Positions 34,149 through 35,108 of a DNA stretch of 64,000 bases are shown here, piece after piece. The notes beneath the pieces were generated by a model, which was not told the origin of the DNA, did not search any database, and worked only from the letters and a program-made list of their open reading frames with translations. Position numbers and translations under genes: made by a program. How positions within the stretch are numbered: the first letter of the stretch is position 1; each line of letters starts with the position of its first letter. The stretch lies in the NCBI RefSeq assembly GCF_003334315.1, contig NZ_QOWR01000018.1; one strand, written 5' to 3'. This DNA comes from Escherichia coli. GTDB taxonomy: Bacteria > Pseudomonadota > Gammaproteobacteria > Enterobacterales > Enterobacteriaceae.

Positions 34149-35108
34149 ATGATAAAAAAACCTGTGATTGGGATCAGCGGTTGTTTGGGCGGTTCTGCTG
34201 TTCGTTTTGATGGTGGTCACAAAAGAGATGACTTTTTAATGGACAAATTAGTGGAATGGGTAACATTCAGACCAGTATGTCCGGAAATGGCTATAGGGCT
34301 GCCAGTTCCGCGTCCTGCTCTACGACTTGTGCGCTCGAAGCAAGGAAATATACGGATGTGTTTCAGCCACGACCAGAATGAGGATGTGACAGAGAGAATG
34401 ACAGAGTTTAGTCGTTCTTATATGGACAAATTAAAGGATGTATCGGGGTTTGTGGTTTGTGCTAAATCTCCCAGCTGTGGCATGGAGCGCGTGCGTGTCT
34501 ATGATGAAAATGGTAATCGAGGTCGTAAAGATGGAGTGGGACTATTTACGAGCACTTTGATGGAAAAGTTTTCCTGGCTACCGGTTGAAGAGGATGGGCG
34601 ATTACATGATCCAGTGCTTCGTGAGAATTTTATTGAAAGAGTTTTTGCTTTGCATGAGCTCAATCACCTTTACAAGGAGAAATTATCAAGAAGAGAGTTA
34701 TTAGCTTTTCATAGTCGTTATAAGCTTCAGTTGTTGGCGCATAGCCAGGCAGGCTATAAAGATATGGGACCATTTGTGGCTGCAATACACGAGTGGGCGG
34801 ACCTTGAATCATACTTTGAGGTGTATCGTGATAATCTGATGGCGATTCTCAGAAAACCAGCATCACGTAAAAATCACACGAATGTGCTGATGCATATACA
34901 GGGGTATTTTAGTAATTACTTAAGTACACGCCAGCGTAAAGAGTTGAGCGAGGTTATACTTAACTATCGCTTTGGCACATTGCCTCTTCTTGCGCCGTTG
35001 ACTCTGCTGAAGCATTATCTGGGTGAGTATCCTAATGATTACTTGCTTACACAGAATTACTTCGATCCCTATCCGGAAGAACTGGCTCTAAGACTGATGG
35101 TGAATTAA
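34149..35108 (+). CDS. YbgA-like DUF523/DUF1722 protein (TudS-type Fe-S domain, 319 aa)
   Basis: N-terminal GISGCLGG plus conserved Cys residues typical of DUF523; C-terminal DUF1722-like region; GGGAGG SD. Confidence 0.75.
   Translation: MIKKPVIGISGCLGGSAVRFDGGHKRDDFLMDKLVEWVTFRPVCPEMAIGLPVPRPALRLVRSKQGNIRMCFSHDQNEDVTERMTEFSRSYMDKLKDVSGFVVCAKSPSCGMERVRVYDENGNRGRKDGVGLFTSTLMEKFSWLPVEEDGRLHDPVLRENFIERVFALHELNHLYKEKLSRRELLAFHSRYKLQLLAHSQAGYKDMGPFVAAIHEWADLESYFEVYRDNLMAILRKPASRKNHTNVLMHIQGYFSNYLSTRQRKELSEVILNYRFGTLPLLAPLTLLKHYLGEYPNDYLLTQNYFDPYPEELALRLMVN

What the first reader, a model, noticed from the sequence alone, without database searches (positions are those of the whole stretch)
34149..35108. 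Prophage-borne YbgA-like DUF523/DUF1722 protein
The N-terminus (GISGCLGG plus conserved Cys residues) matches the DUF523 fold, whose characterised member TudS is a [4Fe-4S] thiouracil desulfidase; in E. coli the chromosomal homolog ybgA sits in an operon with the photolyase gene. A phage copy on the late transcript suggests a role in modified-nucleobase metabolism or DNA/RNA damage handling during infection. I do not know of a described phage function for this family.
Basis: partly seen in the sequence, partly recalled or inferred. Interest (0 to 1): 0.55.

Follow-up and report, generated by a model that had tools for sequence, protein, structure and literature searches.

The report
Prophage-borne RudS tRNA thiouridine eraser
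The gene is real and is a prophage copy of RudS, an iron-sulfur enzyme that strips the light-sensitive 4-thiouridine mark from tRNA; a 92%-identical phage version was tested in 2024, so the enzyme is known and only its role for the phage or lysogen is open.

Summary
Observation confirmed. Window 34149-35108 (+) encodes a 319-aa protein with Pfam 2-thiouracil desulfurase (formerly DUF523, E 1e-39) fused to DUF1722 (E 9e-40). The three cluster cysteines (C12, C44, C110) and catalytic E46, R55, S107 and S109 are intact. The model is confident (pLDDT 96.9), and its N-domain superposes on TudS crystal structures.

The gene lies in a lambdoid Qin-site prophage, in a low-GC cassette (blc lipocalin, this gene, AraC-like regulator) between antiterminator Q and the holin.

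The family is no longer uncharacterised. TudS-DUF1722 fusions are RudS, tRNA 4-thiouridine desulfidases (Jamontas et al., NAR 2024). [quoted passage not shown]

The E. coli K-12 homolog YbgA is only the non-catalytic DUF1722 half (49% identity to residues 164-315). The prophage therefore supplies an activity that K-12 lacks.

The gene occurs in about 20% of complete E. coli genomes. Late-transcript placement fits the geometry but is not shown. A second phage lineage carries RudS in the early region.

Verdict: already known enzyme; biological role in the phage or lysogen untested. Low to moderate interest.

The parts
34149..35108 (+). rudS-type gene (319 aa; annotated 'YbgA family protein', WP_000592549.1)
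   Evidence: ORF. Pfam PF04463 + PF08349. 92% identical to the characterised RudS_vir. Identical to the RefSeq protein in L002.
34167..34595 (+). N-terminal TudS/DUF523 catalytic domain (residues 7-149) with C12, C44, C110, E46, R55, S107 and S109
   Evidence: Pfam E 1.2e-39. Alignment to TudS 6z92. AF2 model superposes on TudS, target-normalised TM 0.71-0.76. Residue conservation.
34722..35075 (+). C-terminal DUF1722 all-helical domain (residues 192-309). In RudS_KT this domain is modelled to bind the tRNA anticodon arm.
   Evidence: Pfam E 9.4e-40. 49% identical to K-12 YbgA. Helical in the model, with no solved-structure match. Role taken from PMC11417400.
34137..34146 (+). purine-rich Shine-Dalgarno region (AAGGGGGAGG) just upstream of the ATG
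   Evidence: Read directly from the sequence. Largely conserved in phages 1H12 and IdasGreatGrand.
33432..33956 (-). blc-type outer-membrane lipocalin gene, divergent from rudS; first gene of the cassette
   Evidence: NCBIfam Blc subfamily, 310 bits against a cutoff of 267. PHROG 2809. Same neighbour in phage 1H12, IdasGreatGrand and all E. coli loci examined.
35506..36228 (+). AraC-family (YdeO/GadX/HilD-like) regulator gene, 33% GC; third gene of the cassette
   Evidence: NCBIfam hits, all below cutoff. Pfam HTH_18/HTH_AraC on the identical neighbour genes. 77% identical to 1H12 gp67. GC content.
32899..33276 (+). antiterminator Q gene (125 aa; 86% identical to DLP12 QuuD)
   Evidence: PHROG 79. 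RefSeq annotation of the identical region. Comparison with QuuD.
33375..33406 (+). strong intrinsic-terminator-like hairpin plus T-run, 99 nt after the Q stop codon; candidate tR' of the late leader
   Evidence: Terminator scan. Fully conserved in 1H12 and IdasGreatGrand. Its function is inferred, not shown.
36297..36326 (+). terminator-like hairpin plus T-run after the AraC-like gene and before the holin; candidate end of cassette-autonomous transcription
   Evidence: Terminator scan. Sequence. Inferred.
36419..36634 (+). holin (essD-type), first lysis gene downstream of the cassette
   Evidence: PHROG holin hits. RefSeq essD at the matching position in L002.

Best explanation
The ORF encodes a RudS-type enzyme. 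The N-terminal TudS-fold domain holds a [4Fe-4S] cluster on three cysteines (C12, C44, C110). The free fourth iron binds the sulfur of 4-thiouridine. E46, positioned by R55, S107 and S109, activates water, so s4U (position 8 of tRNA) is converted back to uridine. The C-terminal helical DUF1722 domain docks the tRNA.

The gene is cargo (a 'moron') of a lambdoid Qin-site prophage. It sits with a Blc lipocalin and an AraC-like regulator in the variable slot between antiterminator Q and the lysis genes. Q-modified RNA polymerase must therefore read through it at induction. Whether it is also expressed in the lysogen is unknown.

E. coli K-12 has only the non-catalytic DUF1722 protein YbgA. The prophage therefore gives its host an s4U-erasing capacity that K-12 lacks. 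The expected consequence is less near-UV (UVA) tRNA crosslinking, hence a weaker growth delay and stringent response.

Shown here: the domains, the residues, the fold and the gene order. Shown by others: the activity of a 92%-identical ortholog. Inferred: the timing of expression and the benefit to phage or host.
For: Both Pfam domains are present at E about 1e-39. The cluster cysteines and the CPE and SPSCG motifs align to TudS crystal-structure sequences. C12, C44, E46, R55, S107, S109 and C110 are at least 90% conserved across 103 homologs of 35-92% identity. The AF2 model has pLDDT 96.9 and pTM 0.93, and its N-domain matches TudS 6z92/6z93/6z96 with probability 1.00.

The protein is 92% identical, without gaps, to RudS_vir (phage 1H12 gp66), and none of the 26 differences falls in a conserved column. 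PMC11417400 reports that all RudS variants tested, including RudS_vir, lowered tRNA s4U when expressed in E. coli. It also reports that Cys, Glu, Ser and Arg mutants of RudS_KT lose activity, and that RudS_KT reduces the UVA growth delay.

Purifying selection is evident (dN/dS 0.14). The gene order Q-blc-rudS-AraC-holin is conserved in isolated phages and in prophages. A conserved terminator-like hairpin follows Q. K-12 YbgA lacks the catalytic half.
Against: No activity, cluster binding or expression data exist for this exact allele or in its native prophage. In the paper, RudS_vir had the weakest tRNA desulfidation relative to its protein level and the shortest lag on 4-thiouracil, so its preferred substrate may not be only tRNA.

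No sigma-70-like promoter was detected in the 192 bp upstream of the gene, and the late promoter was not located. In some genomes IS elements separate the gene from Q or interrupt the cassette. A related phage lineage carries RudS in the early operon. Late-operon timing is therefore not a general requirement.
Confidence: 0.8

Rival explanations
1. It works mainly as a TudS-like salvage or detoxification enzyme on free 4-thiouracil or 4-thio-UMP rather than on intact tRNA.
For: The catalytic domain is the TudS fold with identical active-site motifs. In PMC11417400, RudS_vir gave the shortest lag on 4-thiouracil of all RudS variants, and its tRNA desulfidation appeared lower than its protein level would predict.
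Against: No RudS variant supported uracil-auxotroph growth the way stand-alone TudS did. All RudS variants, including RudS_vir, lowered tRNA s4U, whereas stand-alone TudS did not. The DUF1722 tRNA-docking domain is intact and under purifying selection.
Confidence: 0.1
2. Its relevant role is in the lytic cycle. It is expressed only from the Q-antiterminated late transcript after induction (for example by UV) and erases s4U, so that crosslinked or uncharged tRNA and the stringent response do not throttle late protein synthesis and burst size.
For: The gene lies downstream of Q and of a conserved terminator-like hairpin, and upstream of the holin, all on the same strand. No autonomous promoter was detected upstream. 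The arrangement is conserved in viable phages 1H12 and IdasGreatGrand. RudS_KT overexpression reduces the UVA growth delay.
Against: The Gifsy-like phage lineage carries RudS in the early-right region next to DinI and RusA, not in the late operon. The gene is retained with the identical protein sequence in defective prophages, and where an IS element separates it from Q (L011). There is no LexA box nearby. An enzyme made minutes before lysis has little time to remodel the tRNA pool.
Confidence: 0.3
3. It is a lysogenic-conversion gene. It is expressed in the lysogen, possibly under the neighbouring AraC-like regulator or on relief of H-NS silencing of the AT-rich cassette. It benefits the host by adding an s4U eraser that K-12 lacks.
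For: The cassette has low GC (rudS 43%, AraC-like gene 33%, intergenic regions 31-35%) against 48% for the prophage. It has a terminator-like site at its end and two host-type neighbours, Blc and an AraC regulator. It is present in about 20% of complete E. coli genomes, including decayed Qin-type prophages. K-12 YbgA lacks the catalytic domain.
Against: No promoter was identified and no expression data exist. Regulation by the AraC-like protein is pure conjecture. The cassette is sometimes disrupted by IS elements, and the gene was deleted by IS3 in a BL21(DE3)-derived strain. This suggests weak selection in some lineages.
Confidence: 0.4
4. It is an inert passenger gene with no current function.
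For: IS insertions and truncations occur in some genomes. The window's prophage shows at least one decay mark, a nonsense codon in ydfU just upstream.
Against: dN/dS is 0.14. All catalytic residues are intact. The identical 319-aa protein is very widespread. The 92%-identical ortholog is active.
Confidence: 0.05

Closest known systems
RudS_vir (gp66, H3V29_gp66, of Escherichia phage 1H12; Jamontas et al., Nucleic Acids Res 2024, PMC11417400)
   Same: 319 aa and 92% identical with no gaps. Same Cys12/Cys44/Cys110. Same genomic slot and neighbours: Q, blc on the opposite strand, rudS, AraC-like gene, holin.
   Different: There are 26 substitutions, none in conserved columns. The neighbouring AraC-like protein is only 77% identical. 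The window copy lies in an integrated Qin-site prophage rather than an isolated phage genome.
RudS_KT (Pseudomonas putida PP_0741) and other chromosomal RudS enzymes
   Same: Same two-domain architecture and the same catalytic set. RudS_KT C17/C49/C114, E51, R60, S111 and S113 correspond to C12/C44/C110, E46, R55, S107 and S109 here.
   Different: Diverse representatives share only about 40-45% identity. According to the paper, chromosomal copies sit in light-responsive operons with photolyase or a MerR/LitR regulator. In Citrobacter braakii the gene ends an SDR / amine-oxidase / DUF1365 / CFA-synthase operon. Here the neighbours are Blc and an AraC-type regulator inside a prophage.
TudS (stand-alone DUF523 [4Fe-4S] thiouracil / 4-thio-UMP desulfidase; PDB 6Z92)
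   Same: Same fold in the N-terminal domain (target-normalised TM 0.71-0.76) and the same CPE and SPSCG motifs and three Cys ligands.
   Different: TudS has no DUF1722 domain and does not lower tRNA s4U in vivo. Sequence identity is only about 26%.
E. coli K-12 YbgA (b0707, upstream of phr)
   Same: Homologous to the C-terminal DUF1722 half (49% identity over 152 residues).
   Different: It is 169 aa with no catalytic domain. It has no effect on tRNA s4U according to PMC11417400. The NCBIfam YbgA equivalog score of the window protein is below cutoff.
Cargo genes in the Q-to-lysis slot of lambdoid phages (nmpC in DLP12, shown here; stx in Stx phages, from general knowledge)
   Same: Same position immediately downstream of Q and its leader terminator and upstream of the holin. 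Q is 86% identical to DLP12 QuuD, which is followed by nmpC in the same slot.
   Different: The cargo here is an RNA-modification eraser plus a lipocalin and a regulator, rather than a toxin or porin.

Membership tests
RudS (TudS-DUF1722 fusion, tRNA 4-thiouridine desulfidase) | N-terminal TudS/DUF523 domain (PF04463) | tested here: met
   Pfam E 1.2e-39, residues 7-149. The AF2 N-domain superposes on TudS structures with probability 1.00.
RudS (TudS-DUF1722 fusion, tRNA 4-thiouridine desulfidase) | C-terminal DUF1722 domain (PF08349) fused in the same polypeptide | tested here: met
   Pfam E 9.4e-40, residues 192-309. Single 319-aa ORF.
RudS (TudS-DUF1722 fusion, tRNA 4-thiouridine desulfidase) | Three cysteines that ligate the [4Fe-4S] cluster | tested here: met
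   C12, C44 and C110 align to TudS C10, C43 and C104. The same positions are listed for RudS_vir and RudS_ST in the paper. Conserved in at least 97% of 103 homologs.
RudS (TudS-DUF1722 fusion, tRNA 4-thiouridine desulfidase) | Catalytic Glu, two Ser and the orienting Arg (RudS_KT E51, S111, S113, R60) | tested here: met
   E46, S107, S109 and R55 are present and lie in columns at least 94% conserved.
RudS (TudS-DUF1722 fusion, tRNA 4-thiouridine desulfidase) | Lowers s4U in tRNA (enzymatic activity) and binds a [4Fe-4S] cluster | not testable with these tools
   Reported for the 92%-identical RudS_vir and other RudS enzymes in PMC11417400. Not measured for this allele.
TudS (stand-alone thiouracil desulfidase) | Single-domain protein of about 150-166 aa without DUF1722 | tested here: not met
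   The window protein has two domains and 319 aa. It shares the TudS fold only in residues 1 to about 155.
YbgA of E. coli K-12 (NCBIfam NF007549 / PRK10167 equivalog) | Score above the curated cutoff (237 bits); stand-alone DUF1722 protein of 169 aa | tested here: not met
   189 bits, below 237, and only residues 161-315 match. 49% identity to K-12 YbgA.
Phage moron (autonomous cargo cassette) | Inserted between conserved phage modules, with deviant base composition | tested here: met
   It lies between Q and the holin. In other Qin-site and DLP12 prophages this slot holds different cargo. Cassette GC is 31-44% against 48% for the prophage.
Phage moron (autonomous cargo cassette) | Own promoter and terminator allowing expression from the repressed prophage | tested here: inconclusive
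   There is a terminator-like hairpin at 36297-36318. No promoter-like site scoring at least 9 of 12 lies in the 192 bp upstream of rudS. Promoter-like sites do precede the AraC-like gene.
Known anti-phage defence systems (PADLOC) | Match to a defence-system protein model | tested here: not met
   No PADLOC hit for RudS, Blc, the AraC-like protein or the two small neighbouring ORFs.

The most novel reading that the evidence does not exclude
Temperate enterobacterial phages have acquired a tRNA-modification eraser at least twice: an E. coli lambdoid lineage in the Q-lysis slot, and a Gifsy-like lineage in the early region next to DinI. They may use it to reset host tRNA s4U, either at induction or in the lysogen. 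This would uncouple phage or lysogen protein synthesis from the near-UV growth arrest and stringent response. It would also make s4U-erasing capacity a prophage-determined, strain-variable trait in E. coli, present in about 20% of complete genomes and absent from K-12 and a BL21(DE3)-derived strain.
Probability: 0.3. Interest if true: 0.5.

Novelty: already known. Interest (0 to 1): 0.25.

Why it matters
The enzyme class and a near-identical phage ortholog are already characterised, so the finding adds no new biochemistry.

It does correct a common simplification. [quoted passage not shown] That holds for the laboratory strains examined here: K-12 has only YbgA, and a BL21(DE3)-derived strain retains a 147-bp remnant. 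It does not hold for the species, because about one in five complete E. coli genomes carries an intact prophage-borne rudS.

If the gene is expressed, natural isolates would differ in tRNA s4U dynamics, UVA growth delay and stringent-response behaviour according to prophage content. Why temperate phages repeatedly carry a tRNA-modification eraser is untested. It could be settled with a simple deletion in a lysogen.

Tried and rejected
(1) Blc as a relic of the chromosomal light-responsive operon. I compared the window Blc with the two small proteins just upstream of rudS in Citrobacter braakii (an unannotated 175-aa protein and DUF3833). There was no similarity, so I dropped the idea.

(2) The cassette as the Salmonella SPI-2 orf319/orf242 pair. 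The paper describes the Salmonella gene as under a MerR-family regulator. The neighbour here is AraC-family. Not pursued further.

(3) AraC-like neighbour as PsrA/PsrB/PatE of O157:H7. The two primary papers are not held. I inspected Sakai prophages Sp8 and Sp6 and found no cassette. This remains unresolved.

(4) SOS control. No LexA box lies near the cassette.

(5) Defence-system reading. No PADLOC hits.

(6) RNA elements and tRNA genes. No Rfam match in 32000-38500 and no tRNA gene in the whole window.

(7) Locating pR'. I aligned the region downstream of Q with DLP12 quuD-nmpC. Only a short shared ATATAACAG motif turned up, so the promoter could not be assigned.

(8) Profile-based scan of IMG/VR with the 103-sequence alignment. 

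(9) Exact mapping of the RudS_KT tRNA-contact residues. A bridging homolog (P0140) keeps the same register only in the N-terminal domain, so C-terminal correspondences are approximate.

Full report
OBSERVATION

The window has an ATG-initiated ORF at 34149-35108 on the + strand encoding 319 aa. It is preceded by a purine-rich ribosome-binding stretch.

Pfam-A assigns residues 7-149 to PF04463, now named '2-thiouracil desulfurase' and formerly DUF523 (E 1.2e-39). It assigns residues 192-309 to PF08349, DUF1722 (E 9.4e-40). PHROG 3275, of unknown function, matches end to end.

A sequence search of the PDB finds only TudS (6z92 and related entries). In that alignment C12, C44-P-E46 and S107-P-S109-C110 lie opposite TudS C10, C43-P-E45 and S101-P-S103-C104.

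I aligned the protein with 102 homologs, most of them 35-56% identical. In that alignment C12, C44, E46, R55, S107, S109 and C110 all fall in columns that are at least 90% conserved. An AlphaFold2 model built on the alignment is very confident (mean pLDDT 96.9, pTM 0.93). Its N-terminal alpha/beta domain superposes on the TudS crystal structures with Foldseek probability 1.00 and target-normalised TM 0.71-0.76. The all-helical C-terminal domain has no solved counterpart.

The profile hits are present and the cysteines are intact.

CONTEXT

The window is E. coli chromosome, 98-100% identical to strain S1-INA-02-B over window 13317-54972. It carries a lambdoid prophage integrated next to rspB at the Qin site, with integrase, dicB, repressor and cro, replication genes, hokD, rem, ydfU and Q. 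Downstream come holin, lysozyme, Rz, cspI, terminase, portal, capsid and tail genes.

The gene sits in a three-gene cassette between Q (32899-33276) and the holin (36419-36634):
- A Blc-subfamily lipocalin on the opposite strand at 33432-33956 (NCBIfam 310 bits against a cutoff of 267).
- The DUF523-DUF1722 gene.
- An AraC-family regulator resembling YdeO, GadX and HilD at 35506-36228.

The cassette is lower in GC than the prophage. rudS is 43%, the AraC-like gene 33% and the intergenic regions 31-35%, against 48% for the prophage.

A strong terminator-like hairpin with a T-run lies 99 nt after the Q stop codon (33375-33406). It is invariant in two related phages. A second one follows the AraC-like gene at 36297-36318.

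Q is 86% identical to QuuD of the K-12 DLP12 prophage, where the same slot holds nmpC. This is the classic cargo slot of lambdoid phages.

WHAT IT IS

The literature search settles the identity. Jamontas et al. (Nucleic Acids Res 2024, PMC11417400) named TudS-DUF1722 fusions RudS. They showed that expressing RudS genes in E. coli lowers tRNA 4-thiouridine 4.7- to 26-fold, whereas stand-alone TudS and E. coli YbgA do not. Activity requires the three cluster cysteines and E51, S111, S113 and R60 in RudS_KT numbering. The DUF1722 domain is modelled to bind the anticodon arm. RudS_KT overexpression diminishes the UVA-induced growth delay.

One of the enzymes they tested is 'RudS_vir', locus H3V29_gp66 of Escherichia phage 1H12, with Cys12, Cys44 and Cys110. 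That record was among my BLAST hits. Its gp66 is 92% identical to the window protein (293 of 319, no gaps) and lies in the same order: Q, blc on the opposite strand, gp66, AraC-like gene, holin. None of the 26 differences falls in a conserved column. dN/dS between the two genes is 0.14.

The isolated phage IdasGreatGrand carries a 97.5%-identical copy in the same arrangement.

The window gene is therefore a RudS ortholog, and a phage member of the family has already been characterised.

The K-12 chromosomal ybgA does sit directly upstream of phr. It encodes only 169 aa, homologous to residues 164-315 of the window protein at 49% identity, and it has no catalytic domain. The NCBIfam YbgA equivalog scores below its cutoff on the window protein (189 against 237 bits). 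The RefSeq label 'YbgA family protein' is thus a family label and does not indicate orthology. The prophage gene adds a catalytic function that K-12 lacks.

HOW IT MOST LIKELY WORKS

Molecularly, the mechanism follows the TudS and RudS work and is supported here by residue and fold conservation. The [4Fe-4S] cluster on C12, C44 and C110 binds the thione sulfur of s4U8 through its free iron. E46, oriented by R55, S107 and S109, activates water. Sulfur is replaced by oxygen, regenerating U. DUF1722 supplies the tRNA grip.

Expression and biological role are inferred. Geometrically, Q-modified polymerase starting between Q and the 33375 hairpin must transcribe antisense through blc, then through rudS and the AraC-like gene, before reaching the holin. 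The gene would therefore be made at induction. I could not locate the late promoter. The only shared element with DLP12 is an ATATAACAG motif. No sigma-70-like site scoring at least 9 of 12 lies in the 192 bp upstream of rudS. Expression in the lysogen is therefore open.

Three observations argue that late-operon timing is not the essence:
- A second phage lineage carries a RudS that is 72% identical to the window protein and 98% identical to a Salmonella Derby prophage-remnant copy. These IMG/VR contigs (L055-L060) are Gifsy-like. There the gene lies in the early-right region, between replication genes and DinI, RusA and YdfU homologs.
- In a neighbour-joining tree this lineage nests among chromosomal Enterobacterales RudS sequences, whereas the E. 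coli phage clade branches separately. This suggests at least two acquisitions. The tree is a rough NJ tree.
- The identical protein persists in decayed Qin-type prophages, and in one locus an IS element separates it from Q.

The two role hypotheses, a late-phase helper and a lysogenic-conversion factor, are both plausible. They are separated by the experiments listed under next steps.

A third rival is that the enzyme chiefly salvages free 4-thiouracil or 4-thio-UMP. It gets some support from the paper's remark that RudS_vir gave the shortest lag on 4-thiouracil and comparatively weak tRNA desulfidation. Against it, no RudS matched TudS in that assay.

PREVALENCE

The rudS gene is found at 90% nucleotide identity or more in 1136 of 5426 complete E. 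coli genomes. In 1064 of them at least 80% of the gene is covered. The whole cassette covers at least 80% of the query in 881 genomes. Almost all copies are chromosomal.

[quoted passage not shown] A BL21(DE3)-derived strain retains Q, blc and the first 147 bp of rudS, truncated at an IS3 element.

NEGATIVE CHECKS

- No PADLOC defence model matches any cassette protein.
- There is no Rfam family in 32000-38500 and no tRNA gene in the window.
- No LexA box lies near the cassette.
- The lipocalin is unrelated to the small proteins adjacent to chromosomal rudS in Citrobacter.
- I could not establish whether the AraC-like neighbour corresponds to the O157:H7 prophage regulators PsrA, PsrB or PatE.

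VERDICT

The finding is real and correctly assigned to its domain families. It is an already known kind of enzyme with a nearly identical, experimentally tested phage ortholog.

What remains open is why temperate phages carry it and when it is expressed. That question, and the fact that about a fifth of complete E. coli genomes carry the gene only on prophages, gives the locus modest residual interest.

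Noticed in passing
window 31832-32881 (nonsense codon at 32372-32374): The DUF968/ydfU gene just upstream of Q carries a premature stop. It is TAA here and GAA in strain S1-INA-02-B and in four other loci. The stop splits the 349-aa protein into 180-aa and 168-aa ORFs, a possible sign that this prophage is decaying.
   Followed up: yes
L020 4001-4147 (E. coli Nico21(DE3), NZ_CP053600.1 1589699-1589845): This BL21(DE3)-derived strain keeps Q, blc and only the first 147 bp of rudS. The gene is truncated at an IS3 element that joins to tail-fibre genes. This expression-host lineage therefore lost RudS by an IS-associated deletion.
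   Followed up: partly
L055-L060 (IMG/VR contigs), e.g. L056 5001-5960: A second phage-borne RudS lineage is 72% identical to the window protein and 98% identical to a Salmonella Derby copy next to ttcA. It lies in Gifsy-like prophages between replication genes and DinI, RusA and YdfU homologs, that is in the early-right region rather than the Q-lysis slot.
   Followed up: partly
window 35506-36228: The AraC-family regulator (YdeO/GadX/HilD-like, all NCBIfam hits below cutoff) has 33% GC and lies behind a 397-bp, 31%-GC spacer that holds the best promoter-like site of the region (35156-35183). It may belong to the group of prophage AraC-like acid-resistance regulators (PsrA, PsrB, PatE). I could not test this.
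   Followed up: partly
window 36639-37178: The DUF1327 gene after the holin is 72 aa here, against 103-104 aa in several other strains. Here it is followed by a 98-aa ORF of unknown function on the opposite strand (36882-37178, PHROG 25324). This looks like a small insertion or replacement inside the lysis cassette.
   Followed up: no
L011 3000-4016; L012 6040-7202; hits H1, H2, H28, H37: In other E. coli genomes IS elements (IS5-like, IS3, IS2, IS903B, IS1) lie between Q and blc, between rudS and the AraC-like gene, or inside rudS itself. The cassette region is an IS target and is not always kept intact.
   Followed up: no
L006-L008 110-6960 (Citrobacter braakii): The closest chromosomal relative (75% identity) is the last gene of an operon encoding SnoaL-like, SDR, amine-oxidase, DUF1365, cyclopropane-fatty-acid-synthase-like, DUF2878 and DUF3833 proteins. 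This contrasts with the prophage context.
   Followed up: no
window 33345-33360 and L064 (K-12 DLP12, downstream of quuD): A short motif, ATATAACAG, is shared downstream of the two related Q genes, although the surrounding intergenic sequence has diverged. It could belong to the late promoter or to the Q-loading or pause site.
   Followed up: no
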